From: a phage
DNA: 49,124 nucleotides
Reading direction: 5' to 3' (one strand)
Sequence record: PZ715802.1
Position numbers and translations under genes: made by a program. Below the pieces are notes generated by a model that saw only the letters and a program-made list of their open reading frames with translations, had not been told where the DNA came from and did no database searches. This document shows positions 10,912 to 48,002 of the stretch, piece by piece (position 1 is the first letter of the stretch; each line of letters opens with the position of its first letter).

Positions 10912-11000
10912 CGTGCTAACACAAAAAACACTTGAACGTTTAACAAAAAATGCTATATTAAAGCCGTTATTGTGACGGCTTTTCTATGAGGGGAAATATT

Positions 11001-20793: not shown

Positions 20794-20842
20794 TTACATG
20801 TACAATGGCAGCACGTTTAAATAGCACAAAAGGTTAAAAGCT

Positions 20843-31211: not shown

Positions 31212-31820
31212 TTAGCAATCAGTGCTATCGACGGAAATCACAACGCGTTTCTTCTGATTGGCTTCCTTTGCTTTGCGCCGTTCTTCTTTCGCCTTGTCGC
31301 GTTCAGCTTTGCGCCGCGCTTTCTCCTTCTCGCGTTCTTCTGGAGTCATAGACCGTAACGGATCGTAAGGCCGGACAAATCCCCTTGCTTCCGCTTCCTC
31401 TTTGGTTACAAATCGCATTAGCTTTCTGTTGCTGCAACGATTCTCTAATGGCTTGCCGTTATTATCAAATTTGATATCTGGACGGCAATATGAAGCGCGG
31501 AAGCCGTTAAAACCTTTGCGTCGGTAATCTTTCTGGATCAGTTCAGCGCCTTTAGTTGAAATCATGCCGCGCTCTTTCCATCCCCATACTGTTTTAAGGT
31601 TAACGCCAATTTCACGCGCCAGGGCAGCGCAACCGCCGTAAGCGTTGACAACTTCATCAAGCCGCGCTTTTAATCCGGCTCTTACTTCTTCCTTTAATAC
31701 AAGATAACCGCTAACAGGTGCGCGACGTTTACGATCTTTACCACGTCTTACGCCGTTGTTACCATTGATTGTGCGTTTGTCGATTTCGCCAGTTGATGCA
31801 GCAATTTTGATTTCGCTCAT
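31212..31820 (-). CDS. HTH DNA-binding protein (Cro/YdaS-like) with basic C-terminal tail
   Basis: ORF track; helix-turn-helix-like CAALAREIGVNLKTVWGWK; Lys/Arg/Glu-rich C-terminus; weak RBS. Confidence 0.55.
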   Translation of the reverse strand: MSEIKIAASTGEIDKRTINGNNGVRRGKDRKRRAPVSGYLVLKEEVRAGLKARLDEVVNAYGGCAALAREIGVNLKTVWGWKERGMISTKGAELIQKDYRRKGFNGFRASYCRPDIKFDNNGKPLENRCSNRKLMRFVTKEEAEARGFVRPYDPLRSMTPEEREKEKARRKAERDKAKEERRKAKEANQKKRVVISVDSTDC

Positions 31821-38171: not shown

Positions 38172-38557
38172 AAAAGAAATTAATGGCTGTTTTGATGTGC
38201 GTTATGCTTTCCGGTTGTTCTGCGTCGAGCTTGTTACCTGGCCTGATTGGTAGCAAGCCCGATATAACAGCACAGGCAGGATCTGAAAATGTGAAACAAA
38301 CTGTTGGTGTAACTGCAAAGCATGATACATCAAGCAATCAGGAAACCACATTTAAAGAATCGGCTGTTGGAAAGGTTGACACGTCGAATAAAAAACAGGT
38401 GAGCACTTCAAGCATTAAGGCAGATAACATCACAGCGGAAAGAATAGAGATCCGAAACAATGATGGTCTTAATGTTCCGGCAATCGCAATGGGTATATTG
38501 ATGTTTATTGCTGGTATGCTGGCAGGGTGGGCACTTAAACGTAACAAGGCGGCATAA
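38168..38557 (+). CDS. unimolecular spanin
   Basis: ATGA overlap with endolysin; lipobox LSGC at N-terminus and C-terminal [21 protein letters not shown], the architecture described for T1 gp11. Confidence 0.75.
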
Positions 38558-38573
38558 GCCGCCTTTTCTTTTA
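38547..38573. terminator. hairpin terminator at junction of convergent blocks
   Basis: stem aaggcggc/gccgcctt followed by TTCTTTT. Confidence 0.5.
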
Positions 38574-38792
38574 AAAAATATTGTTCATTAAGTCTTGGAA
38601 ACTATTACCGCTATAATCCTTTTCCTCAATAATGTGAGCGCCTTTCTTTTTTATATCCCACAGCATTTTTTCATATTCGCAGCGGTTAATGCCAAACGTA
38701 CTACCATCATCAACATATGCGGTTCCTTTGTTGTTGAAAACGTCAAATGTAACATTAACAACGCGAATTGTTTTGATAGTGCATTTTAACAT
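38571..38792 (-). CDS. hypothetical protein
   Basis: ORF track; AAAGGA RBS; box element upstream. Confidence 0.45.
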   Translation of the reverse strand: MLKCTIKTIRVVNVTFDVFNNKGTAYVDDGSTFGINRCEYEKMLWDIKKKGAHIIEEKDYSGNSFQDLMNNIF

Positions 38793-38828
38793 TTTGTTTT
38801 CCTTTTGTTGCTACGTTTCGTTAAAGCA

Positions 38829-38871
38829 AATATACCCGATACAAGATCGGGTGTTTTAACAAAAAGTGCTA
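38829..38871 (-). promoter_or_regulatory. composite box element (minus): TAGCActtttTGTTA, 22 nt, TATATT
   Basis: palindrome 38857-38871; spacer hairpin cccgat/atcggg. Confidence 0.55.
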
Positions 38872-39066
38872 TTCAAAGCGCCTGACGTGAATTAGTAGTT
38901 CACCGTCATCATTTGTTAACTGGTGCTCATTATCTTCAAACGCTCGCATATCACTGTAAAGCAACAACATTAGTGCATAGACAAAATCATCATGCGAAAT
39001 TTGCATTGCTGAACTTTCTTTCAAAATAAGATCTATCAAATGCTGGCTTGCTGAATAATTCTTCAT
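38869..39066 (-). CDS. hypothetical protein (overlaps 38990-39382; status uncertain)
   Basis: track ORF; stop codon coincides with TAG of the box, as for several other genes. Confidence 0.3.
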   Translation of the reverse strand: MKNYSASQHLIDLILKESSAMQISHDDFVYALMLLLYSDMRAFEDNEHQLTNDDGELLIHVRRFE

Positions 39067-39382
39067 CGCTCATTTTCTCAATGTTCATCATCTCCCACAC
39101 ATAACGATTGGAATCACCTTCCAGGCTATGCAACTCAAAATTAAACGGCCTTTTCATCTTGTTTTTGCACCAGTACACGCAATGAACGCCGTCAAGATAT
39201 CCATAACCCATCATTCGCGCTATAAACTCTTTGCTTGAGCTTGAAGCGAAATAGCGGGGCGTTACCCCCGCATTTTTGGCGAGCCTTTCACATTCACGGT
39301 GACGGAATATAAATCTTGCTAACTCTTGGCGGTTGAATTTCTCGCGAGACTCGCAAAAGCGATACAGATCTAATAAGAACAT
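38990..39382 (-). CDS. hypothetical protein
   Basis: ORF track; GGGG RBS. Confidence 0.45.
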   Translation of the reverse strand: MFLLDLYRFCESREKFNRQELARFIFRHRECERLAKNAGVTPRYFASSSSKEFIARMMGYGYLDGVHCVYWCKNKMKRPFNFELHSLEGDSNRYVWEMMNIEKMSDEELFSKPAFDRSYFERKFSNANFA

Positions 39383-39384
39383 GA

Positions 39385-40965
39385 TTACCCCATTAACGCC
39401 GGATTTACATAAACAAATTTACCAACGCTGCAAACATAATTCTTTTCTTCAAGCATTGGCAATAATTGTTCCTCAATTCGTTTCATCACGCCTGATTGAC
39501 CTGTAAACGGCTTAACCTTACGCGCACTTTCATAGATAGCTCTTGCATTGGTAACGCCTTTATTTTGACGTGAGATCTTAATGATTATTTCAATTAACTT
39601 GCTCATTTCTGCATCATCGCCAGCGTGACCGGAAGCATTCGCGGCGTTGATATATGTTTTGCTTAATTCGCTGAACATCACCAAAGCCTCTTGCATTGTC
39701 TCAACTTCAATTTCTCGCGACTTTTGCGGCGTACCGTTTGGATTAAACCAATTGCGGATCGTGTGCAATACTGACGCAATGCGGATCACTTGCTTATCCA
39801 TTTTGCCCAAAGCACCACGCAACATTGTATGTGAATATTTCCCGCCGTCTGCTAAATCTGGCTCTAATTGCTGGCGAGCAATATTAAGAACACGCATTGC
39901 AGAACGTGACGGCTTCAATACAACATTTTGCTCAGTCATGATGTTATGAATCAACTGGAAATATTGCGCCTTTAATTCTTTATCAACTGGCGTGTAATCA
40001 AGATCACCATTTTCATCAATAAATACACGCTCGCCTAACATTGTTTTTTCACGTACAAGTAAGAAACGTTCACTAACACCGATACCACGCGCCCCTGCAT
40101 CCATGATCCCTTTTATCGTTTCATCCTGGGCAATTACGCTCATGCAGCCCAACGCAACAAAACTCATATTGTTTTCAGAGTTGGCGCGAGCTATTGAAAC
40201 GTGTCCGGCGTCCCATGCTTTTAGAACCAATTCGCTGTTAGTCTTGCGATCACTATTAGCGTAAGTCAATCCGAGTAAGCTGTTGATGCTTGTTGCTTCA
40301 TCGGAAATAACAGCAAAGTTACCCTGGCGATTGTTGATCTTTGCTAACCCTTCCGGCGTGGTGTCTGATACCGGAAAAACGATATCGCACATTTTTTCTA
40401 ACTTTTCCTCTAATTCCTCCTTTTCCTCAAACAACGCAGCTAACTCAGTGCCGGAACGTTCAGCTTTCAATTCCTTTTCAACGCCTTTTAATTTCGCTGC
40501 GATCTTCTTTCGCTCTTTCTTGCGTTGTTCGTTGATGCGCTCAACTTCACAGACCATTGGCGCAATAGCCAGGCTGTTGATTGCTGATTTACCAGTTGAT
40601 GGCGGCTGACTGGTTACAACGTAAAGCGCCGTTGGTTGTTCAGTGCCGTGGTACTCAACTTGGAAGCGTCCAACCATAGCGGCGGAAACGCAACCTATGA
40701 AATGCATATAGGCCGATGATTCAGGAAATTGAACAGATTGCGCAATGCTACGTGACAGTTTACCCACAACATCAACATCATTACCCAAAGAGATCACAGG
40801 ATAACGGTCATTAGCGCCGTTGATATCCTTCACAGGTTCCCAAAAGCTGGACGATTGGCGGTAGCCGTTCGACTGAATAGCAACGCGAAGCGGCGATGTT
40901 CCCTGCGATTCTGCAATGGCTATAACTTGTTGAGGTGTCAATTTGTTGGTGTCAAAGTCAAACAT
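39385..40965 (-). CDS. Walker-A ATPase, possibly replication-associated
   Basis: 526 aa; AAGGAGA RBS; SQPPSTGKSA P-loop-like motif; box element upstream. Confidence 0.5.
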   Translation of the reverse strand: MFDFDTNKLTPQQVIAIAESQGTSPLRVAIQSNGYRQSSSFWEPVKDINGANDRYPVISLGNDVDVVGKLSRSIAQSVQFPESSAYMHFIGCVSAAMVGRFQVEYHGTEQPTALYVVTSQPPSTGKSAINSLAIAPMVCEVERINEQRKKERKKIAAKLKGVEKELKAERSGTELAALFEEKEELEEKLEKMCDIVFPVSDTTPEGLAKINNRQGNFAVISDEATSINSLLGLTYANSDRKTNSELVLKAWDAGHVSIARANSENNMSFVALGCMSVIAQDETIKGIMDAGARGIGVSERFLLVREKTMLGERVFIDENGDLDYTPVDKELKAQYFQLIHNIMTEQNVVLKPSRSAMRVLNIARQQLEPDLADGGKYSHTMLRGALGKMDKQVIRIASVLHTIRNWFNPNGTPQKSREIEVETMQEALVMFSELSKTYINAANASGHAGDDAEMSKLIEIIIKISRQNKGVTNARAIYESARKVKPFTGQSGVMKRIEEQLLPMLEEKNYVCSVGKFVYVNPALMG

Positions 40966-40992
40966 CTAAAAATCTCCTTCTTGTTGCCGCTA

Positions 40993-41035
40993 ATTATAAC
41001 GGCAACATTCTACAGCCTTTTAGCAATTCGTGCTA
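40993..41035 (-). promoter_or_regulatory. composite box element (minus): TAGCAcgaatTGCTA, 22 nt, TATAAT
   Basis: palindrome 41021-41035; -10-like hexamer in loop of gttgccg/cggcaac hairpin. Confidence 0.6.
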
Positions 41036-41281
41036 TTTGATCGGCTCAACCCTGGCTAATAACTTTCCGTCTATAATGCTATGACATTCAAGAGTTTTAG
41101 GATCGAACGCAAGCGAACGATGGAACGTATGACCAATCAGCAAATATGAATGCTTATCCCTGATGCGATAGACCGTTTCACCTTCCTTTAATGACGATAT
41201 CGCACTAAAAACAACCTTGTAACGATATTTTTGCATAGCCTCAGAACGGTGAGGAATGTAATCTTTTTCCGGTAAACTCAT
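41033..41281 (-). CDS. hypothetical protein
   Basis: ORF track; ATGA overlap; stop is TAG of box. Confidence 0.45.
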   Translation of the reverse strand: MSLPEKDYIPHRSEAMQKYRYKVVFSAISSLKEGETVYRIRDKHSYLLIGHTFHRSLAFDPKTLECHSIIDGKLLARVEPIK

Positions 41282-41640
41282 GAGTATTTGGCCTCAAACA
41301 GATAAGCACCGCCAGCGGCTGAAAATCCAACTTCTTCCCGATACAGAGTGAAACGGTCTCCGTTTTCGTCGAAAACATATCCAGCAACAGCACCTAACAC
41401 GCGGCCTTGTTCGATCTGGTAACGCTTATCGGCTTTGAAAGTTTTCTTGATCTGCATGGAGTGGTTTACCCATGTGCATTTAATGGTTTTGGTCTTAACA
41501 TTTCGGAATGTTAATCCGGTTAAGTTGGCGTGAATCCATTTCCCATCTAACTTAACGAAAGTATCATCATTTTCGTCTACCCGCGCTTTGTATAGGCGGT
41601 TATCAGATCCGATAAGTTTGATTGATTTGAATTTAGCCAT
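41278..41640 (-). CDS. hypothetical protein
   Basis: ORF track; AAAGGAGA RBS. Confidence 0.5.
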   Translation of the reverse strand: MAKFKSIKLIGSDNRLYKARVDENDDTFVKLDGKWIHANLTGLTFRNVKTKTIKCTWVNHSMQIKKTFKADKRYQIEQGRVLGAVAGYVFDENGDRFTLYREEVGFSAAGGAYLFEAKYS

Positions 41641-41673
41641 TTGATTTATCTCCTTTTGTTTTCGTTGAAAGCA

Positions 41674-41715
41674 TTATGCCGGATACGTGATCCGGCGTTT
41701 TAACAAAAAGTGCTA
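41674..41715 (-). promoter_or_regulatory. composite box element (minus): TAGCActtttTGTTA, 21 nt, CATAAT
   Basis: palindrome 41701-41715; spacer hairpin gccggatc/gatccggc. Confidence 0.55.
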
Positions 41716-42408
41716 TTTCTGATTTGCCAGGCATACAGCAAGCGCAAAGCCGCGCGGAGTGAGTGAGCGGATCAGCTTTGTTCGCTTAGACTTGCCGCCG
41801 AGCTTTTGCCAGCCTGGATTGTTGTTCCCTGTTGGCAATACTGCGTTTGTATCCGGCATTACAAAGCCGTTACCCGTCCAAAGACAAGTTTTTTTGGTGT
41901 ACGCATCGCGAGCGGGAATGATTTCAGGAAAGTGAGGATGTTTATCATCTTCCGGCAACAGACCTCCAAACGCGCAAGGATGAAAGATAAAATCAGGTTG
42001 CCGCCACATTGACGACAGAACACTAACAGGATTCTCAATCATGTATGGAACGTTAAACCGATCCGCAATATTGGCAGCAATCTTTGCCGTTTCAACCGCC
42101 TTTTTCTGGAAGTCTGGATCACGTTCACGCTTTGCGGCAAAGTGACGCGATCCACTAACAGCTAAATCAGTGCATGGAGGGAATGCAATAATAAAATCTG
42201 GAGTGCCAAAGACGCGCATCATTGCGTTATGCTGGAATGATAATCCGATCCACTCATTCAAATAAACTATGTTGGGATGAGTCACGCGCACTGATTGGTA
42301 ATCACCATGATCAGCACCGTCGAAATTAAAGCACAGCACTTTGTGACCACGTTCAGCCCACGGCAACGCAGCATAACCAGAACCATCAAATAGTGAGAAA
42401 ATAAGCAT
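41713..42408 (-). CDS. compact DNA cytosine-5 methyltransferase-like protein
   Basis: internal ATG of track ORF 41713-42462 with AAAGGA RBS; motif I LFDGSG, motif IV FPPC, motif VI ENP with spacing as in M.HhaI-type enzymes; only about 231 aa. Confidence 0.5.
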   Translation of the reverse strand: MLIFSLFDGSGYAALPWAERGHKVLCFNFDGADHGDYQSVRVTHPNIVYLNEWIGLSFQHNAMMRVFGTPDFIIAFPPCTDLAVSGSRHFAAKRERDPDFQKKAVETAKIAANIADRFNVPYMIENPVSVLSSMWRQPDFIFHPCAFGGLLPEDDKHPHFPEIIPARDAYTKKTCLWTGNGFVMPDTNAVLPTGNNNPGWQKLGGKSKRTKLIRSLTPRGFALAVCLANQK

Positions 42409-42516
42409 GTTTAAATCCTTTCTGTATGACCTTGTAAGGCGTTTTGTTTGTAGGTGTGACAATCGTATTAGTTACGGCCTGAAATCGCGACATAATGCGA
42501 AACAGGCCGCTATTTT

Positions 42517-42594
42517 TTACTTACAGAATGGGCATGTTGTTTTATTCCCGCTTCCGCCGTGTTTTGGACAGCAAATTTTTTCGATAGGTGTCAT
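42517..42594 (-). CDS. Cys-rich mini-protein (25 aa), not in ORF track
   Basis: ATG with GGAG RBS; MTPIEKICCPKHGGSGNKTTCPFCK. Confidence 0.25.
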   Translation of the reverse strand: MTPIEKICCPKHGGSGNKTTCPFCK

Positions 42595-42606
42595 TTTAAA
42601 TACTCC

Positions 42607-42831
42607 TTAGAATGGGAAACAACGCTTGCAAGATGGATCGAAGTTACAACCGCAATCATTGATTATTGCGTTAGGATCAGCAAGCATCACGCTACTTTCT
42701 TGATCCATATCCATAGCGCCTAATGCGTCATCAAGCGTTATTTCAAGATAGGCAACTTTAAGCGCCCATTCCTTGTTGAGTCCAGCCGCATCCGCTTCAT
42801 GTAGGCGAGCAAAGAAAGCATCTTGAACCAT
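42607..42831 (-). CDS. hypothetical protein with C-terminal Cys cluster
   Basis: track ORF 42607-42849 begins with TTG; first ATG at 42831. Confidence 0.4.
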   Translation of the reverse strand: MVQDAFFARLHEADAAGLNKEWALKVAYLEITLDDALGAMDMDQESSVMLADPNAIINDCGCNFDPSCKRCFPF

Positions 42832-42832
42832 A

Positions 42833-43054
42833 TCAACCCCACTTCTCAATAAACATGCTCATTTCGTCAATCATCGCGTAAGCATCGCTTTCAGTCATGC
42901 GACGGATTCTTCCGCCTGGGTGTTCGCCAACAGCGTAACCAGTTTTTACGCGGGTAATCGTTAACTGATGGAATCCAGAGTCGCGATCCATTTTCAAAAC
43001 TACTTTCCCGTGAGCTTTGACAATGTTCATGATGGATTCAGTTTTCAGTTTCAT
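42833..43054 (-). CDS. hypothetical protein
   Basis: ORF track; GGAGA RBS. Confidence 0.45.
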   Translation of the reverse strand: MKLKTESIMNIVKAHGKVVLKMDRDSGFHQLTITRVKTGYAVGEHPGGRIRRMTESDAYAMIDEMSMFIEKWG

Positions 43055-43085
43055 TTTTGATTCTCCATTTTGTTTATGTGAAAGT

Positions 43086-43128
43086 ATGATACCAATCAGA
43101 GCGTTATCGTTTTTAGCAATTCGTGCTA
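43086..43128 (-). promoter_or_regulatory. composite box element (minus): TAGCAcgaatTGCTA, 22 nt, TATCAT
   Basis: palindrome 43114-43128. Confidence 0.55.
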
Positions 43129-43280
43129 TTTACGGCGATAAACGGATATCCTGTTAAATCTGCATTTCTATAACGTGCAGACCTAACCCAACAGCCGCCT
43201 TTGCTCATAATTAAAGCGTTTTTATGGCGAATATTCACGCGGTAAATTCTTCCGGTTTTTATGTTTTTGAAGTAGGTCAT
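43113..43280 (-). CDS. hypothetical small protein (55 aa), not in ORF track
   Basis: ATGA overlap with stop of 43277-43510; reads through the box and stops within it. Confidence 0.3.
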   Translation of the reverse strand: MTYFKNIKTGRIYRVNIRHKNALIMSKGGCWVRSARYRNADLTGYPFIAVNSTNC

Positions 43281-43510
43281 AATTTAACCTCATGATACTC
43301 TATAAACTCTTGCACATATGCGCATTCGCGCGGCGACTCCTGGCCTTTTATCACCTCACAGCCACCATTAAACAGATAGCAGTGCTGGCAAAGGTTGCCA
43401 CCTGCGTTTTCCTCAGCGATCTGAATTCCGGTACACAAACCGCCACCAAACCTATGAGGAAAATCGTAAGCATGGCAGCGGCACGTTGCTTGATTCCGCT
43501 TACGTTTCAT
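43277..43510 (-). CDS. Cys-rich hypothetical protein
   Basis: ORF track; eight Cys residues. Confidence 0.45.
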   Translation of the reverse strand: MKRKRNQATCRCHAYDFPHRFGGGLCTGIQIAEENAGGNLCQHCYLFNGGCEVIKGQESPRECAYVQEFIEYHEVKL

Positions 43511-43791
43511 TAGATGTTCTCGCTAATAAACTGGATAACCTGGCGAAGATGTTTTTCATCTTTAATTAATGCTGGCAATTCTTCCATAACTTCTTTTTTA
43601 AGATAAATGTTTGCATTCCATGTGAATGAGCCATCACCATTTACGCGGTAAGAGCAAAGCCATTCGCAATCATTATCAGATTCCCAAATGCACAGCGTTT
43701 CAAATTCTTCAAACTTGTTGTAACCCGTTTCAATGCTTAACTCAATGCCACGTTTGCCAGCGAAGTTAGTAGTTGTTTTTGATACCATCAT
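43510..43791 (-). CDS. hypothetical protein
   Basis: ORF track; GGAGA RBS. Confidence 0.45.
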   Translation of the reverse strand: MMVSKTTTNFAGKRGIELSIETGYNKFEEFETLCIWESDNDCEWLCSYRVNGDGSFTWNANIYLKKEVMEELPALIKDEKHLRQVIQFISENI

Positions 43792-43823
43792 TTTAAAATT
43801 CTCCGGTTCGTTTCGATGAATGC

Positions 43824-43866
43824 ATTATGCCAAAACAAACCGGATCGCTTTTAACAAAAAGTGCTA
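43824..43866 (-). promoter_or_regulatory. composite box element (minus): TAGCActtttTGTTA, 22 nt, CATAAT
   Basis: palindrome 43852-43866. Confidence 0.55.
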
Positions 43867-43968
43867 TTTAATTAAAATACTAATACCTTTTCGCACGCTT
43901 TCCGTCGCCTCCGTAATGGTCATTAGCAACAGCAAGAATCCAAGCGTTAGGAATAAAAAATAGCTTCA

Positions 43969-44163
43969 TTAATCACTCTCCATGACAATTACAGGCTCCA
44001 GGCGCTCAAGCACCACTTTGAAATCGGAGTAAAAAGTGGGGCGACATTTTGTTAATTCCTCATATGTATCAGTTGCCAGGCAAGCGCGATCACCTTCATA
44101 GCACACAACTCGCTTACCATTTGCGCGACTGATTGCAACGACGCGATAAGTATTATTGATCAT
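43969..44163 (-). CDS. hypothetical protein
   Basis: ORF track; start overlaps upstream stop. Confidence 0.4.
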   Translation of the reverse strand: MINNTYRVVAISRANGKRVVCYEGDRACLATDTYEELTKCRPTFYSDFKVVLERLEPVIVMESD

Positions 44164-44396
44164 TTCATCACCTCAATTGAATAAATACTTTCAACGCCTG
44201 GCGCGTATAACCGATCTCCATCTTCAGTTATGCAAAGGCAAAGTGCAAGGCCGCGATTGTCTAAAATATGCAAGTCATTTTGTCTATCCATCAAAATTTC
44301 ATATTCGCGATCTTCATCAAATCGCCAAACGCTTAACATGCACTTTCCAGATGATTTAACTTTTACTTTCTTTCCGGCGAAATTTAAACGACTCAT
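44160..44396 (-). CDS. hypothetical protein
   Basis: ORF track; ATGA overlaps at both ends. Confidence 0.45.
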   Translation of the reverse strand: MSRLNFAGKKVKVKSSGKCMLSVWRFDEDREYEILMDRQNDLHILDNRGLALCLCITEDGDRLYAPGVESIYSIEVMK

Positions 44397-44611
44397 TGCG
44401 CCACCTCCACAGTTTCAAATACGGTATTGAATGCCAGAAGTTTAAATTTCTTGCCAGGCTCAACCACTGCGATATTCCAGGTAATGCCGCCGTGATATGC
44501 AACCATATCATCAATATCAACAGTAACCTCAGTACCTTTTTTGAACAATCCTTTTTCGTGGCTCGCATCGCGTACAGTAACCACAGTTTCGAATTGAGTT
44601 TGAATTTCCAT
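44393..44611 (-). CDS. hypothetical protein
   Basis: ORF track; AGGAGA RBS. Confidence 0.45.
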   Translation of the reverse strand: MEIQTQFETVVTVRDASHEKGLFKKGTEVTVDIDDMVAYHGGITWNIAVVEPGKKFKLLAFNTVFETVEVAQ

Positions 44612-44642
44612 CGTTAATCTCCTGATTGGTTTCGATGGGGTA

Positions 44643-44685
44643 ACTATATCAAGATACCCCGATCCGGTTTTAACAAAAAATGCTA
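44643..44685 (-). promoter_or_regulatory. composite box element (minus): TAGCAtttttTGTTA, 22 nt, TATAGT
   Basis: palindrome 44671-44685. Confidence 0.55.
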
Positions 44686-44686
44686 T

Positions 44687-45121
44687 TTACAGCCATTCGC
44701 CGGAAACAATGAAATCAGTGAAATCGTCATGATCCAAAATGCTGTGATAGCCAGTGCAATAATCATTTTTAACCATGTTACCACGCAAACGCACATAATC
44801 AGCCTTTCGATCCGTAATCCAACGAATAAAGCGAGCGTTACGTTGTGGTATCGTTCCGGCGTAAGCCTCTTTGAATCCAATGTGTGCGATGAATGCCACA
44901 AAGCGGATTTGCAAGCCTGGATTGTCTTTCTTTGCCTCGTTAACCAGGTCGCGGAAGTTTTCACGCGTTGGCTTGACCGGAACCAATTCGCCTAACTCGA
45001 TCATGCGGTTGAAGTCTGAAACACTGGAAGATGATTCCATAAACAGCCCATCGCTACCAAACATCACAACGCCGCTTTCGATGAAGTAAGTGTGTCCGTT
45101 GTATTTGTTGGTGTATTTCAT
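44687..45121 (-). CDS. hypothetical protein
   Basis: internal ATG of track ORF 44687-45157 with GAGGA RBS; first gene after the minus-strand box at 45153-45195. Confidence 0.5.
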   Translation of the reverse strand: MKYTNKYNGHTYFIESGVVMFGSDGLFMESSSSVSDFNRMIELGELVPVKPTRENFRDLVNEAKKDNPGLQIRFVAFIAHIGFKEAYAGTIPQRNARFIRWITDRKADYVRLRGNMVKNDYCTGYHSILDHDDFTDFIVSGEWL

Positions 45122-45152
45122 CGTGAATTCCTCATTTCGTTTCGATGAAGTA

Positions 45153-45195
45153 ATCATAGCAATTCGCGTCTGATTGGTTTTAACAAAAAGTGCTA
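45153..45195 (-). promoter_or_regulatory. composite box element (minus): TAGCActtttTGTTA, 22 nt, TATGAT
   Basis: palindrome 45181-45195; first promoter of the minus-strand block. Confidence 0.55.
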
Positions 45196-45205
45196 TTCAT
45201 GCAAT

Positions 45206-45233
45206 AGACCGATTGGTCTAGACCGTTTGGTCT
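45206..45233. promoter_or_regulatory. operator-like tandem 14-bp palindromic repeats AGACCGATTGGTCT / AGACCGTTTGGTCT
   Basis: two adjacent copies differing at one base; includes perfect 10-bp palindrome GGTCTAGACC. Confidence 0.45.
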
Positions 45234-45269
45234 AATGAACGCATCGTTTTGTGTATCGAACGCATTCAT

Positions 45270-45297
45270 GATCCTGTTACGTGATCGTTATATGATC
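45270..45297. repeat. cluster of three GATC sites within 28 bp
   Basis: GATC at 45270, 45283, 45294 inside a non-coding region; the phage encodes a Dam-type methyltransferase. Confidence 0.4.
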
Positions 45298-45513
45298 AGA
45301 TGATGATTGATGTGTGAGATTTTGTGATTGAAATTGATTTGATTTGATTAGATTTGAGTAGTGAGTGAGTAGAAATAATCACACCTTGCCGATCAGTGAA
45401 AACTTTTCCCGCAAAACATCACTCCATGCTCCGCGCGTTTCGTTTTGTTCCTCGTTGTTTTCCGCCAGACCTTCCGCAGTTTAGCGCAACGTTACACAAC
45501 ACGTATAACAACA

Positions 45514-45570
45514 AAATATCTATATAATACATTGAAAAGTAAGATAATTATTATTATATATCTATATTGT
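45514..45570 (+). repeat. AT-rich repeat copy B
   Basis: matches copy A at 24742-24799. Confidence 0.6.
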
Positions 45571-45784
45571 TATATAACTTGTTTTGCTTGTTTCTTGTGA
45601 TATTGATACCCATTTGCGGATTGATAGAGTATAAAATTATAAGATAGGTGCTCTTATTTATTATGGGTGATGCTGATTTTTTGCGAAATAGTGTAACGAT
45701 TTAGAACACCGTTGATTTGAAAGGATAAATTTTCAAATCCTGTTATATTGCGTGATGTTTTTGTTGCCTAATCAAAAATAACAC

Positions 45785-45812
45785 TTGACGCATAAGCCAG
45801 GTTTGCTAAGAT
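45785..45812 (+). promoter_or_regulatory. sigma70-like promoter TTGACG-N16-TAAGAT
   Basis: hexamers at 45785-45790 and 45807-45812, about 35 nt upstream of ATG 45847. Confidence 0.45.
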
Positions 45813-45846
45813 TTCTGCATCGAGCAACAACGGAGGATAACCAATC

Positions 45847-46134
45847 ATGGTAAGGGGCAAAATCGTAAAGCGTGACCTATCCATAGTTGATGCAACGCCA
45901 GAAGATGCAACCAAAGATATCATGCGCCTAATGTACATAGCGCGGATAATTGAGGCGGCAAAACCAAACAGGCTGTATTACATCGACGTTAAGGCATCCG
46001 GTCGAGATGTTAACTCATTGCGCCAGGCAATAAACACGATTGCGAAAGAGGATCGCAGAACCATTAAAACAATAACCACTGATAACGGCTATATCGGCTT
46101 TGTTATCATCGACGTTAAAGAAGCGTTTGTGTAA
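45847..46134 (+). CDS. hypothetical protein
   Basis: ORF track; GGAGGA RBS. Confidence 0.5.
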   Translation: MVRGKIVKRDLSIVDATPEDATKDIMRLMYIARIIEAAKPNRLYYIDVKASGRDVNSLRQAINTIAKEDRRTIKTITTDNGYIGFVIIDVKEAFV

Positions 46135-46822: not shown

Positions 46823-46865
46823 TAGCACTTTTTGTTAAAACTCGATTGGGGTAGTTTGGCATAAT
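46823..46865 (+). promoter_or_regulatory. composite box element: TAGCActtttTGTTA, 22 nt, CATAAT
   Basis: palindrome 46823-46837; spacer hairpin ggggta/tacccc. Confidence 0.6.
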
Positions 46866-46897
46866 TACCCCATCGAAACGAAACGAGGAAAACACAA

Positions 46898-47638: not shown

Positions 47639-47962
47639 ATGGAATTAGCACGTAACGCAATTTATGGCTTACACCTCAAAGGCGGTAAAGGTTCAACCTA
47701 TGTTCACCTTTTTCATGTGAATGAGCGCAACCAGGTTGATATTGCGATGTATACAGATCAGTTTCTGGTAAAAGGTGAAATGGGCGATAGGTTTAATCCG
47801 CAATTCGTCGAACAAGATCCAACGTATAGCCATGACCATTGGGTTTGTGATGATTACTATAATTTCATCATGGTTGATAGTCACGTTACGGACACGCGGA
47901 AAATAACAGTTAGCGACTATAAGCGCATGACTCGAAAAGTATTGAAGCATAAAGCGCAATAG
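47639..47962 (+). CDS. hypothetical protein
   Basis: ORF track; AAGGAA RBS; stop is TAG of the next box. Confidence 0.5.
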   Translation: MELARNAIYGLHLKGGKGSTYVHLFHVNERNQVDIAMYTDQFLVKGEMGDRFNPQFVEQDPTYSHDHWVCDDYYNFIMVDSHVTDTRKITVSDYKRMTRKVLKHKAQ

Positions 47963-48002
47963 CACAAAATGTTAAGCGGTCATGTGTCCTGATGGGTATA
48001 AT
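47960..48002 (+). promoter_or_regulatory. composite box element, variant: TAGCAcaaaaTGTTA, 22 nt, TATAAT
   Basis: palindrome 47960-47974; spacer hairpin gcggtcat/atgaccgc. Confidence 0.5.

What the first reader, a model, noticed from the sequence alone, without database searches (positions are those of the whole stretch)
38571..45121. Minus-strand accessory block of about 15 small genes with seven box promoters
This 6.6-kb block is read opposite to the flanking genes and carries one box element per one to three genes. It encodes mostly proteins of 60-150 aa with no recognisable motifs, several Cys-rich, plus the Walker-A ATPase and the compact C5-methyltransferase-like protein. Gene density, short overlaps (ATGA) and independent promoters are typical of host-takeover or anti-defence islands, making it the most likely place for an uncharacterised function.
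Basis: inference. Interest (0 to 1): 0.6.

Follow-up and report, generated by a model that had tools for sequence, protein, structure and literature searches.

The report
Phage early genes behind marbox-like promoters
This is the already-sequenced right-arm early gene block of a T1-like (Tlsvirus) phage; what is new is that its repeated "box" matches the binding site of the host stress regulators MarA/SoxS/Rob, placed exactly as in host promoters that these proteins switch on.

Summary
Window 38571-45121 carries 17 annotated minus-strand genes, plus one unannotated 25-codon ORF, and seven box elements, between plus-strand flanks. The window is a near-complete Tlsvirus genome, 98.4% identical to Citrobacter phage Stevie. 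The block matches TLS gp70-86 and T1 orf1-10.

It is not purely accessory. Genes g2, g3 (winged-helix), g4 (DUF3987 ATPase, found in 920 phage records), g6 and g9 are conserved across three Drexlerviridae lineages (Tlsvirus, T1, Webervirus). The g10-g17 half, nearest the divergent intergenic region, varies most. It includes a homologue of Gp54, the published trigger of the CapRel defence protein. The compact C5 methyltransferase is confirmed by motifs and fold.

The box is genome-wide, with at least 17 promoter-type copies, and was published in 2024 as a 21-nt repeat of unknown function. I find that it matches the E. coli marbox consensus. It lies in forward orientation, 18 nt upstream of a -10 hexamer, with no -35. 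That is the geometry of the class II promoter micF.

Published Bas11 data show that a fragment starting at the box drives expression in uninfected E. coli. No MarA-like phage protein was found.

My best explanation is that these are host MarA/SoxS/Rob-responsive early promoters. Factor binding is untested.

The parts
45122..45196 (-). Promoter cassette 1, serving g17. Marbox ATAGCACTTTTTGTTAAAAC at 45177-45196, 18-nt spacer, extended -10 TGC-TATGAT at 45153-45158, leader CATCGAAACGAA, RBS GAGG.
44687..45121 (-). g17, 144 aa, function unknown (phrog_21159). Absent from TLS and U136B, so variable.
44612..44686 (-). Promoter cassette 2, serving g16-g13. Marbox ATAGCATTTTTTGTTAAAAC at 44667-44686, -10 TGA-TATAGT at 44643-44648. 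The hairpin GGGGTA/TACCCC encloses the -10.
44393..44611 (-). g16, 72 aa. Member of Pfam PF25180, 'Phage antiviral trigger protein Gp54'.
   Evidence: E 6.7e-31, 106 bits against a cut-off of 27; PDB 9axb/9erv Gp54, E 2.5e-9; 212 phage records
43880..44396 (-). g15 (44160-44396, 78 aa), g14 (43969-44163, 64 aa) and g13 (43880-43969, 29 aa). Small proteins of unknown function joined by ATGA and TAATG overlaps.
43792..43867 (-). Promoter cassette 3, serving g12-g10. Marbox at 43848-43867, -10 TGG-CATAAT at 43824-43829.
43113..43791 (-). g12 (43510-43791, 93 aa; replaced by an HNH endonuclease in TLS and U136B), g11 (43277-43510, 77 aa, 7 Cys; also in Webervirus) and g10 (43113-43280, 55 aa).
43055..43129 (-). 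Promoter cassette 4, 'G' variant, serving g9, g8, the micro-ORF and g7. Marbox ATAGCACGAATTGCTAAAAA at 43110-43129, -10 TGG-TATCAT at 43086-43091.
42607..43054 (-). g9 (42833-43054, 73 aa; conserved in T1 and Sushi) and g8 (42607-42831, 74 aa, with a Cys cluster at the C-terminus).
42517..42594 (-). Unannotated 25-codon ORF MTPIEKICCPKHGGSGNKTTCPFCK with a GGAG RBS. It is 24/25 identical in TLS, Stevie and U136B, and is followed by a conserved hairpin GGCCTG...CAGGCC.
41713..42408 (-). g7, a compact (231 aa) orphan C5-cytosine DNA methyltransferase.
   Evidence: phrog_757, 1.5e-86; invariant FDGSG, PPC and ENPV motifs; AlphaFold2 pLDDT 89.7; the best 50 Foldseek PDB matches are all C5 DNA methyltransferases; no Pfam or NCBIfam hit
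41641..41716 (-). Promoter cassette 5, serving g6 and g5. Marbox at 41697-41716, spacer hairpin GCCGGAT/ATCCGGC, -10 CATAAT at 41673-41678.
41033..41640 (-). g6 (41278-41640, 120 aa; conserved in T1 and Sushi) and g5 (41033-41281, 82 aa; Tlsvirus only).
40966..41036 (-). Promoter cassette 6, 'G' variant, serving g4, g3 and g2. Marbox ATAGCACGAATTGCTAAAAG at 41017-41036, -10 TATAAT at 40993-40998, enclosed by the hairpin GTTGCCG/CGGCAAC.
39385..40965 (-). g4, 526 aa. DUF3987 P-loop ATPase with Walker A (PSTGKS) and Walker B (ISDE) motifs. A core gene of the family.
   Evidence: PF13148, 5.9e-43; phrog_2373, 'DNA helicase'; 920 phage records; next to primase and helicase genes in Vibrio phage pYD38-A
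38869..39382 (-). g3 (38990-39382, 130 aa, winged-helix protein) and g2 (38869-39066, 65 aa). g2 overlaps the 3' end of g3 by 77 nt in another reading frame. Both genes and the overlap are conserved in T1 and Sushi.
38793..38872 (-). Promoter cassette 7, serving g1. Marbox at 38853-38872, terminator-like spacer hairpin at 38834-38852, -10 TATATT at 38829-38834.
38571..38792 (-). g1, 73 aa, function unknown (phrog_10679). Absent from TLS.
38546..38565 (.). Bidirectional intrinsic terminator between the spanin gene and g1. It marks the end of the block's transcripts.
   Evidence: T69/T70 in the TLS table
45205..45234 (.). Two overlapping palindromes, TAGACC-N4-GGTCTA, immediately upstream of cassette 1. 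They occur nowhere else in the window and are conserved in TLS and Stevie. A possible operator.

Best explanation
The block is the conserved right-arm early/middle region of a T1-like (Tlsvirus) genome. It has two parts:
- a family-wide core: a winged-helix protein, a DUF3987 ATPase that is probably replication-associated, and g2, g6 and g9;
- a variable set of small genes, including an orphan C5 methyltransferase (self-methylation against restriction, inferred) and a Gp54-family protein.

The block is transcribed leftward in seven units. Each unit starts at a copy of a roughly 75-bp cassette that occurs at least 17 times in the genome. The cassette runs: 20-bp box, 18 bp, -10 hexamer (about half with a TGn extension), a roughly 25-nt A/C-rich leader, RBS, ATG.

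The cassette is a sigma-70 promoter without a -35 element. Its box is a consensus marbox in forward orientation, centred near -41. This is the class II architecture of E. coli micF and fumC.

I therefore propose that a monomer of the host activators MarA, SoxS or Rob (RamA in other hosts) binds the box. GCAC would be read by one helix-turn-helix and TAAA by the other. The bound activator replaces the missing -35 contact and recruits RNA polymerase. Rob is made constitutively, which would give expression in unstressed cells. MarA, SoxS and activated Rob would raise phage early expression under antibiotic, oxidative or bile stress.

Shown: the sequence match, the geometry, conservation across the family, and promoter activity without phage proteins.
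Inferred: which protein binds, and that it activates.
For: 1. Sequence match to the marbox.
- Published consensus GCAHWWWWTGYYAAA (PMC6900184): 13 exact and 9 one-mismatch matches, against 3.4 expected at up to one mismatch. Exact matches expected by chance are 0.018 per window and 1.7 per whole E. coli chromosome.
- AYNGCACNNWNNRYYAAA: 17 exact matches against 0.11 expected. I recalled this consensus from memory. It fits the real fumC, micF and mar sites with 0-1 mismatch over its 20-nt form.
- The box is 16/20 identical to the marRAB marbox.

2. Pattern of variation. Variation among a loosely seeded set of 60 box-like sites, a few of them false positives, in window, T1, Sushi and Bas11 falls mainly at positions 8, 9, 10, 14 and 20, which the marbox consensus leaves degenerate. 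G4, C5 and A6 never vary; C7 is T in 12 of 60 sites, most of them false positives of the seed.

3. Geometry.
- Every promoter-type copy (16 of 18 in the window) reads in the same direction as its downstream gene.
- 39 of 43 boxes have a hexamer matching TATAAT at 4/6 or better, 18 nt (36 cases), 17 nt (2) or 19 nt (1) after the 20-nt marbox. The background rate is 16%.
- micF has exactly 18 nt. fumC has 17 nt.
- The best -35 match is only 2-3 of 6. This fits the published description of class II promoters: centred near -41, no recognisable -35, normal -10 (PMC10268841; PMC9638938).

4. Host factors suffice. In Zhang et al. 2024 the 'native promoter' construct for Bas11 gene 54 begins at TAGCACTTTTTGTTAAAAC. 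It gave Gp54-FLAG in uninfected MG1655. Escape mutations just upstream of the gene lowered expression. The Bas11 sequence is marbox, 18 nt, TATCAT.

5. No phage MarA-like protein.
- A MarA/SoxS/Rob profile and single-sequence searches against all 1618 six-frame ORFs of window, TLS and T1 gave a best E of 0.085.
- The g3 model is a winged helix, not an AraC fold.
- The HHpred-based T1 annotation lists no AraC-type protein.

6. Distribution. The cassette is conserved in T1, TLS, Bas11 and Webervirus Sushi, all on enterobacterial hosts. It is absent from Vibrio phage pYD38-A, which shares the replication module.

7. Identity of the block.
Against: - No binding or activation data exist for MarA, SoxS or Rob on these sites, and no transcription start site has been mapped. 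The -41 position is inferred from the -10 hexamer.
- Position 19 is A in most copies where the consensus has Y, although micF also has A there.
- About half of the copies contain the dyad TAGCA-N5-TGCTA. That could instead suit a dimeric phage regulator, such as the Cro/C2-like protein encoded at 31212-31820, which has its own sigma-70 promoter in TLS.
- About half of the promoters have an extended -10 and might work without any activator.
- The Bas11 plasmid experiment shows host sufficiency, not dependence on the box or on Rob.
- Rob is largely sequestered in unstressed cells.
- From memory, I know of no host-factor screen that reported rob, marA or soxS for T1-like phages. Redundancy among the three genes could hide an effect.
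- Absence from the Vibrio phage is confounded with phylogeny.
- A stable hairpin of variable sequence overlaps the spacer or -10 in 30 of 43 cassettes. This model does not explain it.
Confidence: 0.6

Rival explanations
1. The box is the operator of a phage-encoded regulator. A dimeric helix-turn-helix protein would bind the TAGCA-N5-TG(C/T)TA dyad at about -41 and switch these promoters on as a middle class, or later off. Candidates are the Cro/C2-like protein at 31212-31820 and the winged-helix g3. The resemblance to the marbox would then be coincidental.
For: - The dyad is perfect in the TTGCTA copies.
- The regulator gene has its own canonical sigma-70 promoter, P57, in TLS. That fits an immediate-early activator.
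- The regulator is conserved as phrog_2856, 'transcriptional regulator'. The T1 homologue resembles the P22 C2 repressor by HHpred.
Against: - The dyad is imperfect (TGTTA) in most copies. The invariant flanks are asymmetric: AAA on the 5' side and AAAA on the 3' side.
- A cloned cassette works in uninfected cells.
- A chance match to 13 of 14 specified marbox positions has a probability of about 5e-7 per site, before counting the agreement in orientation and spacing (my calculation).
Confidence: 0.15
2. The box is a factor-independent promoter element. It would act as an UP-element-like contact for the RNA polymerase alpha C-terminal domain, which, together with an extended -10, gives strong constitutive early promoters. 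This is one of the suggestions made by the TLS authors.
For: - The box is A/T-rich in its centre and 3' end and lies between -50 and -31.
- 20 of 39 promoters have a TGn extension.
- Expression occurs in uninfected cells.
- The idea is proposed in PMC11447400.
Against: - The invariant G4-C5-A6 core (C7 is nearly invariant) is not an UP-element feature.
- The element lies closer to the -10 than a full UP element does, which I recall as -40 to -60.
- Half of the promoters, including Bas11 gene 54, lack both a -35 and a TGn extension.
Confidence: 0.12
3. One reading: the block is an accessory host-takeover or anti-defence island whose small proteins mainly inhibit host defences or host physiology.
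For: - The small early genes have no known domains.
- The g10-g17 half varies between close relatives. g12 is replaced by an HNH endonuclease, and g1 and g17 are absent from TLS.
- g16 belongs to the Gp54 family, which is non-essential and is suggested to inhibit a defence system.
- The methyltransferase could protect the phage genome from restriction.
Against: - Five genes, including the largest, are conserved in the same order across three lineages.
- The DUF3987 ATPase travels with replication genes in a distant phage.
- No hit to any characterised anti-defence protein was found.
- The promoters are not specific to the block.
Confidence: 0.35
4. The box and hairpin act on RNA or on elongating polymerase. 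They would work as stoperator-like roadblocks, terminators or processing sites that separate transcription units, not as promoters.
For: - The box overlaps the stop codon of the upstream gene.
- A stable hairpin follows it in 30 of 43 copies. Some of these have T-runs and are annotated as terminators T57 and T62 in TLS.
- The stoperator idea is raised in PMC11447400.
Against: - A -10 hexamer at a fixed distance is nearly universal.
- The cloned cassette drives expression.
- Most of the hairpins lack a T-run.
- The two roles are not exclusive. The hairpin may terminate upstream transcripts while the cassette starts new ones.
Confidence: 0.08

Closest known systems
Class II MarA/SoxS/Rob-dependent promoters of E. 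coli (micF, fumC, lpxC, lpxL, rfaY)
   Same: - A 20-bp asymmetric marbox with GCAC and YAAA elements, in forward orientation.
- 17-18 nt from the marbox to a sigma-70 -10 hexamer.
- Centred near -41, with no usable -35.
- Basal activity without induction.

   Different: - These copies are on a virulent phage genome, at least 17 per 49 kb, and almost all match the consensus perfectly. Host marboxes are degenerate.
- They are fused to a conserved leader and RBS as a repeated cassette.
- A hairpin of variable sequence usually overlaps the spacer or -10.
- Binding by MarA, SoxS or Rob has not been tested.
The 21-nt intergenic direct repeat of phage TLS (German et al. 2024, PMC11447400); the authors also report it in T1, Rtp and Rogue1
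   Same: It is the same element, aaATAGCACnnnTTGnTAAAA. It has the same position, about 76 nt before start codons, and the same orientation.
   Different: That paper left the function open, suggesting a stoperator, an enhancer site or an UP element, and counted only three sigma-70 promoters. Here a fixed -10 partner, the marbox identity and the micF-like spacing are added.
Right-end minus-strand gene block of Drexlerviridae (TLS gp70-86, T1 orf1-10, Stevie gp41-57, Sushi gp43-53)
   Same: Same position after the lysis cassette and same order: winged-helix protein, DUF3987 ATPase, small genes, methyltransferase, small genes. Identity to Stevie is 98.4%.
   Different: Relative to TLS and U136B, the window has g1, g12 and g17 and lacks the HNH endonuclease. 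g13 is 29 aa rather than 33 aa.
T4 middle promoters (MotA box plus -10, sigma appropriation)
   Same: An activator box replaces the -35 element upstream of a good -10. The box contains TTGCT, as I recall the MotA box does.
   Different: As I recall, the MotA box is centred at -30 and needs the phage proteins MotA and AsiA. Here the box is centred near -41, no MotA or AsiA homologue was seen, and the promoter works in uninfected cells.
Gp54 of phage Bas11 (PF25180; PDB 9axb, 9erv)
   Same: g16 scores 106 bits against the family model and aligns with the solved protein. It has the same size, the same genomic neighbourhood and the same type of promoter.
   Different: Only about 41% identity to Bas11 Gp54. 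[quoted passage not shown]

Membership tests
Class II marbox (MarA/SoxS/Rob) promoter | A 20-bp site matching the marbox consensus (GCAC element, A/T-rich spacer, RYYAAA element) | tested here: met
   17 exact matches to AYNGCACNNWNNRYYAAA against 0.11 expected. 13 exact matches to GCAHWWWWTGYYAAA. 19 exact matches to GCANNWWNTGNNAAA.
Class II marbox (MarA/SoxS/Rob) promoter | Forward orientation relative to transcription | tested here: met
   Each of the 16 promoter-type copies in the window has GCAC distal and reads toward the downstream gene. Two further copies lack a -10 hexamer, and one of them (10956) lies antisense in the structural region.
Class II marbox (MarA/SoxS/Rob) promoter | Site overlaps the -35 region and is centred near -41; 17-19 bp to the -10 hexamer | tested here: met
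   18 nt in 36 of 39 cases. micF has 18 nt, with its annotated start giving a centre of -41.5. fumC has 17 nt. The phage position rests on the predicted -10 hexamer; no start site has been mapped.
Class II marbox (MarA/SoxS/Rob) promoter | Sigma-70 -10 element present, -35 not recognisable | tested here: met
   Mean -10 score is 4.5 of 6 against a background of 2.6. The best -35 match is 2-3 of 6 in 55 of 60 sites.
Class II marbox (MarA/SoxS/Rob) promoter | Bound by MarA, SoxS or Rob, and activated by them | not testable with these tools
   Needs gel-shift or footprinting assays, in vitro transcription, and reporter assays in a marA soxS rob deletion strain. The only indirect support is activity in uninfected MG1655.
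Drexlerviridae / Tlsvirus right-arm block | Nucleotide identity and synteny with TLS gp70-86 and Stevie gp41-57 | tested here: met
   98.4% identity over 100% of the block to Stevie.
C5-cytosine DNA methyltransferase (PF00145) | Catalytic motifs I (FxGxG), IV (PC) and VI (ENV) | tested here: met
   FDGSG, PPC (with C79) and ENPV are invariant in 32 homologues.
C5-cytosine DNA methyltransferase (PF00145) | Score above the family-model threshold | tested here: not met
   No Pfam or NCBIfam hit even at E up to 10. A few homologues at about 60% identity do carry PF00145. This is a divergent, short branch of the family.
C5-cytosine DNA methyltransferase (PF00145) | Fold of the catalytic domain | tested here: met
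   Model pLDDT 89.7. The best 50 PDB matches are all C5 DNA methyltransferases (DNMT3A/B, DNMT1, MET1, prophage CP-933R 3g7u), with E about 1e-6 and TM-score 0.45-0.5.
Gp54 antiviral-trigger family (PF25180) | Family-model score above cut-off, and similarity to the solved protein | tested here: met
   106 bits against a cut-off of 27. PDB 9axb, E 2.5e-9.
Gp54 antiviral-trigger family (PF25180) | Activates CapRel-SJ46 | not testable with these tools
   The paper reports that other homologues do not trigger it.
Anti-defence island | Contains homologues of characterised anti-defence proteins, and is variable between relatives | tested here: inconclusive
   No such homologue was found by Pfam, PHROGs, NCBIfam or PDB sequence search. 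The g10-g17 half is variable, but the g2-g9 part is largely conserved. Only two of the proteins were modelled.
UP element | A/T-rich tract at -40 to -60 with no conserved G/C core (feature recalled from memory) | tested here: not met
   G4, C5, A6 are invariant and C7 nearly so. The element spans about -50 to -31.

The most novel reading that the evidence does not exclude
T1-like phages of enterobacteria have wired almost their whole early and middle transcription programme to the host MarA/SoxS/Rob (RamA) stress regulon. That is at least 17 promoters per genome, conserved across Tunavirinae, Tempevirinae and Webervirus. Phage gene expression would then rise in cells exposed to antibiotics, oxidants or bile. 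For TolC-dependent members such as TLS, the same regulators also raise the level of the phage receptor. This would be the first virulent-phage regulon run by a host multidrug-resistance activator, and it would answer the open question about the 21-nt repeat.
Probability: 0.5. Interest if true: 0.8.

Novelty: new member of a known kind. Interest (0 to 1): 0.6.

Why it matters
The gene block itself is ordinary. It is annotated, mostly as hypothetical proteins, in well over a hundred sequenced relatives.

The promoters are what matter. The authors of the 2024 TLS re-annotation list the function of the 21-nt repeat among the open questions for T1-like phages. They also could not find enough promoters to explain how the genome is transcribed.

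Reading the repeat as a class II marbox supplies the missing promoters. It also names a concrete host factor that can be tested in days with existing strains and purified proteins.

If the reading is correct, three things follow:
- Infection by a very common group of enterobacterial phages, some of them used in therapy, would be linked to the host's antibiotic and oxidative stress response. This bears on phage-antibiotic combinations.
- It would explain why the element is so strictly conserved across divergent phages.
- It would provide a set of compact, near-consensus marbox promoters for studying MarA, SoxS and Rob.

Tried and rejected
- Sigma-54 promoter. The box resembles TGGCAC-N5-TTGC, but it has AG where sigma-54 needs GG, the spacing is 2 nt short, and a sigma-70 -10 follows. 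Rejected by inspection.
- TTGYTA as a displaced -35. It lies 23 nt from the -10, too far for sigma-70.
- MotA-box analogy. The position is wrong (-41 rather than -30), and the promoter works without phage proteins.
- A phage-encoded MarA-like activator. Profile and single-sequence searches of all ORFs in three genomes found nothing, best E 0.085. The g3 model is a winged helix with only weak matches to MarR, GntR and IclR family proteins, E 0.2 or worse.
- Known RNA families and tRNAs in the window: none.
- The generic sigma-70 scan found fewer sites than in shuffled sequence, 11 against 20. It missed the box promoters because they lack a -35.
- PDB sequence searches for g3, g4 and g7 gave nothing usable.
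- Literature searches linking the marbox or MarA/SoxS/Rob with Drexlerviridae or phages found nothing relevant. A search for Drexlerviridae transcriptomes found no start-site data.
- I looked for the exact positions of the Bas11 promoter escape mutations in the paper's supplements. They are not held.
- The inaA upstream region gave no marbox with two or fewer mismatches, so it was not used as a comparator.
- Vibrio phage pYD38-A has neither a marbox nor any other repeated box. It is an outgroup of limited value.

Full report
**What the window is.** A megablast of 38571-45121 finds 174 phage records. The best are Tlsvirus members (Drexlerviridae, Tempevirinae): vB-Eco-KMB25 at 98.5% and Citrobacter phage Stevie at 98.4%, both over 100% of the query. 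The 49,124-base window is therefore essentially a complete T1-like genome. The block corresponds to Stevie gp41-57, TLS gp70-86 and T1 orf1-10. In Webervirus Sushi the same arrangement follows the lysis cassette.

**Check of the observation.** All real genes in the interval are on the minus strand. They lie between the plus-strand holin, endolysin and spanin genes (ending at 38557) and plus-strand small genes that start at 45847. GC skew is negative across the block.

Mapping onto the Stevie annotation gives 17 genes of 29-526 aa. An unannotated 25-codon ORF with a GGAG ribosome-binding site lies at 42517-42594 and is 24/25 conserved in three relatives.

Seven box copies lie at 38854, 41018, 41698, 43111, 43849, 44668 and 45178. 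ATGA overlaps occur at four gene junctions and TAATG overlaps at two. Several products are Cys-rich. There are 13 matches to the 20-mer with up to 3 mismatches, plus variant copies, against none expected.

**What the genes are.** The Pfam, PHROGs and NCBIfam searches, with follow-up analyses, give the following.

- g4 is a DUF3987 P-loop ATPase (5.9e-43; PHROG label 'DNA helicase') with Walker A and Walker B motifs.
- g16 belongs to PF25180, 'Phage antiviral trigger protein Gp54' (6.7e-31). It matches PDB 9axb/9erv.
- g7 hits no Pfam or NCBIfam model even at E up to 10. It does belong to phrog_757 and has 5404 homologues, a few of which carry PF00145.
  - The motifs FDGSG, PPC and ENPV are invariant in the family.
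  - A confident model (pLDDT 89.7) matches only C5 DNA methyltransferases among its best 50 PDB hits.
It is a divergent, short branch of that family.
- g3 models confidently (pLDDT 88.4) as a winged helix. It has only weak matches to MarR, GntR and IclR type domains.
- The remaining genes fall in PHROGs of unknown function.

**Core or accessory.** Local tblastn shows that g2, g3, g4, g6 and g9 are present, in the same order, in TLS, T1 and Sushi.

- g8 and g14 are also in T1. g7 and g11 are also in Sushi.
- g5, g10, g13, g15 and g16 were found only in Tlsvirus genomes among those compared locally.
- g1 is missing from TLS.
- g12 and g17 are missing from TLS and U136B. Those phages carry an HNH endonuclease where g12 sits.
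- g4 homologues occur in 920 phage records, g16 homologues in 212.
- In Vibrio phage pYD38-A the g4 homologue sits beside the primase and helicase genes.

The block is therefore a conserved core joined to a variable end. It is not an island of purely accessory genes.

Zhang et al. 2024 (PMC11578894) showed that Bas11 Gp54 is non-essential, directly activates CapRel-SJ46, and may inhibit another defence system. That gives partial support to the anti-defence reading for the variable half.

**What the box is.** The element is already published. German et al. 2024 (PMC11447400) describe a 21-nt repeat, aaATAGCACnnnTTGnTAAAA, with 18 intergenic copies in TLS about 76 nt before start codons. They list its function among the open questions. 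They suggest a stoperator, an enhancer site or an UP element, and they found only three sigma-70 promoters in the genome.

Aligning all copies in the window shows a fixed architecture: box, a constant spacer, a TATAAT-like hexamer, a leader close to CATCGAAACGAA, GGAG, then ATG.

Across window, T1 and Sushi, 39 of 43 boxes have a hexamer matching TATAAT at 4/6 or better. It lies 18 nt (36 cases), 17 nt (2) or 19 nt (1) after the 20-nt box. The background rate is 16%. Twenty of the 39 carry a TGn extension. The best -35 match is only 2-3 of 6.

**The marbox match.**

- The box fits the MarA ChIP-seq consensus 5'-GCAHWWWWTGYYAAA-3' (PMC6900184). There are 13 exact matches in the window. Expectation is 0.018 per window, or 1.7 for a whole E. 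coli chromosome.
- It fits gcannwwntgnnaaa (PMC12052159) 19 times in the window, 19 in TLS, 20 in T1 and 11 in 15.7 kb of Sushi. Expectation is about 0.4 per genome.
- It fits the 20-nt Martin consensus 17 times against 0.11 expected. I recalled that consensus from memory. I checked it against the real fumC site (0 mismatches), the micF site (1 mismatch) and the mar site.
- Variation among copies falls mainly at positions the consensus leaves degenerate (8, 9, 10, 14 and 20). G4, C5 and A6 never vary.

**Geometry.** Every promoter-type copy is in forward orientation. In E. coli micF, the archetypal class II promoter, the site is stated to be centred at -41.5 (PMC9638938). There the marbox ACAGCACTGAATGTCAAAAC is followed by exactly 18 nt and then TAGAAT. 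In fumC the distance is 17 nt. Published descriptions of class II promoters say: forward orientation, near -41, no recognisable -35, normal -10, often with basal activity. All of these fit the phage cassette.

**Host or phage factor.**

- A profile built from E. coli MarA, SoxS and the Rob N-terminal domain, plus single-sequence searches, found nothing among the 1618 six-frame ORFs of window, TLS and T1. The best E was 0.085.
- g3 is not AraC-like.
- The HHpred-based T1 annotation lists only Cro/C2-like and RipR-like helix-turn-helix proteins.
- Most telling is the 'native promoter' construct for Bas11 gene 54 in Zhang et al. Its primer starts at TAGCACTTTTTGTTAAAACCAGTCAGATGC, which is at the box. 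The Bas11 sequence reads marbox, 18 nt, TATCAT. The construct produced Gp54-FLAG in uninfected MG1655, and phage escape mutations just upstream of the gene lowered expression.

The cassette is therefore a promoter that needs only host components.

No paper in the searchable library connects the marbox or MarA/SoxS/Rob with these phages.

**Mechanism proposed.** I propose sigma-70 promoters of class II type in which a host MarA-family monomer bound at the box substitutes for the -35 contact. Rob is constitutive and the other activators are stress-induced. The block is read from seven such promoters and ends at the bidirectional terminator at 38546-38565.

The sequence identity, the geometry, the conservation and host sufficiency are shown. 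The identity of the bound protein, and activation itself, are inferred.

**Caveats.**

- No binding data or start-site data exist.
- A partial dyad, TAGCA-N5-TGCTA, could suit a dimeric phage regulator. The candidate has its own sigma-70 promoter in TLS.
- Extended -10 elements may make some copies activator-independent.
- Absence of the box from the Vibrio phage is confounded with phylogeny.

**Unexplained.** In 30 of 43 cassettes the 36 nt after the box fold into a stable hairpin (z below -2, mean z -2.7; controls 7 of 60). The stem sequences differ from copy to copy, for example GGGGTA/TACCCC, AAGGCCA/TGGCCTT and GTTGCCG/CGGCAAC. The hairpin usually encloses the -10 or fills the spacer. A few have T-runs and are annotated as terminators in TLS. 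They may end or stabilise upstream transcripts, but this has not been tested.

**Verdict.** The block itself is known. The new element is the reading of its promoters, and of the family's repeat of unknown function, as class II marbox promoters. That reading is well supported by sequence analysis and is directly testable.

Noticed in passing
window, 36 nt downstream of each box (e.g. 44643-44666, 40987-41010, 46842-46877); also in T1 (L005) and Sushi (L011): A stable hairpin whose stem sequence differs from copy to copy overlaps the promoter spacer or encloses the -10 in 30 of 43 cassettes (mean z -2.7). Most have no T-run. Its role is unknown; it might be a 3'-end stabiliser, an insulator or a processing site.
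   Followed up: partly
window 42517-42594 (-): An unannotated 25-codon ORF, MTPIEKICCPKHGGSGNKTTCPFCK, lies between g8 and the methyltransferase gene. It has four Cys residues in a zinc-knuckle-like pattern and a GGAG ribosome-binding site. It is 24/25 identical in TLS, Stevie and U136B, while the noncoding DNA after it diverges.
   Followed up: partly
window 42440-42515 (-): A remnant-like cassette lies upstream of the methyltransferase gene. It has AAATAGC, then the hairpin GGCCTG...CAGGCC, then an ACACC/AAACAAAAC leader, but no full marbox. The -10-like CATTAT inside the loop is not conserved in Stevie, whereas the hairpin arms are.
   Followed up: partly
window 38990-39066 (-); T1 (L005) 44105-44193; Sushi (L011) about 2664-2809: g2 starts 77 nt inside the 3' end of g3, in another reading frame. 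Both the overlap and the g2 N-terminal sequence are conserved in T1 and Sushi, where g2 is not annotated. This may be dual coding or a programmed frameshift.
   Followed up: no
window 45205-45234: Two overlapping perfect palindromes, TAGACCGATTGGTCTA and TAGACCGTTTGGTCTA, lie directly upstream of the first box of the block. They are unique in the window and conserved in TLS and Stevie. They may be an operator for a dimeric regulator.
   Followed up: partly
window 10937-10956 (-) and 20821-20840 (+): Two box copies lack a -10 partner. One is antisense in the structural region, in the position of TLS DR7 between the decoration-protein and capsid genes, and T1 has one there too. The other is an 'AAA' variant just before the tail-fibre gene. 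They may be binding sites without promoter function.
   Followed up: no
window 45240-45846: This is the roughly 650-bp divergent intergenic region between the two early arms. It holds TTGAT/TTGATTAGAT tandem repeats (45334-45361), very A/T-rich stretches, and a canonical extended -10 sigma-70 promoter (TTGACG, 16 nt, TGC-TAAGAT at 45785-45812) for the plus-strand arm. It corresponds to the TLS genome ends.
   Followed up: partly
window 31212-31820 (-): A Cro/C2-like helix-turn-helix regulator of 202 aa (phrog_2856). In TLS it is one of only three genes with a canonical sigma-70 promoter. It is a candidate temporal regulator of the box promoters or of late genes.
   Followed up: partly
window 47959-47978 (+): An additional 'A-type' box, ATAGCACAAAATGTTAAGCG, followed after 18 nt by a perfect TATAAT. 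The first 20-mer searches missed it, so the count of promoter-type boxes in the window is at least 17.
   Followed up: partly
window 43880-43969 (-): g13 is 29 aa here but 33 aa in Stevie. An earlier stop codon shortens it, and the Stevie coordinates do not transfer exactly.
   Followed up: yes
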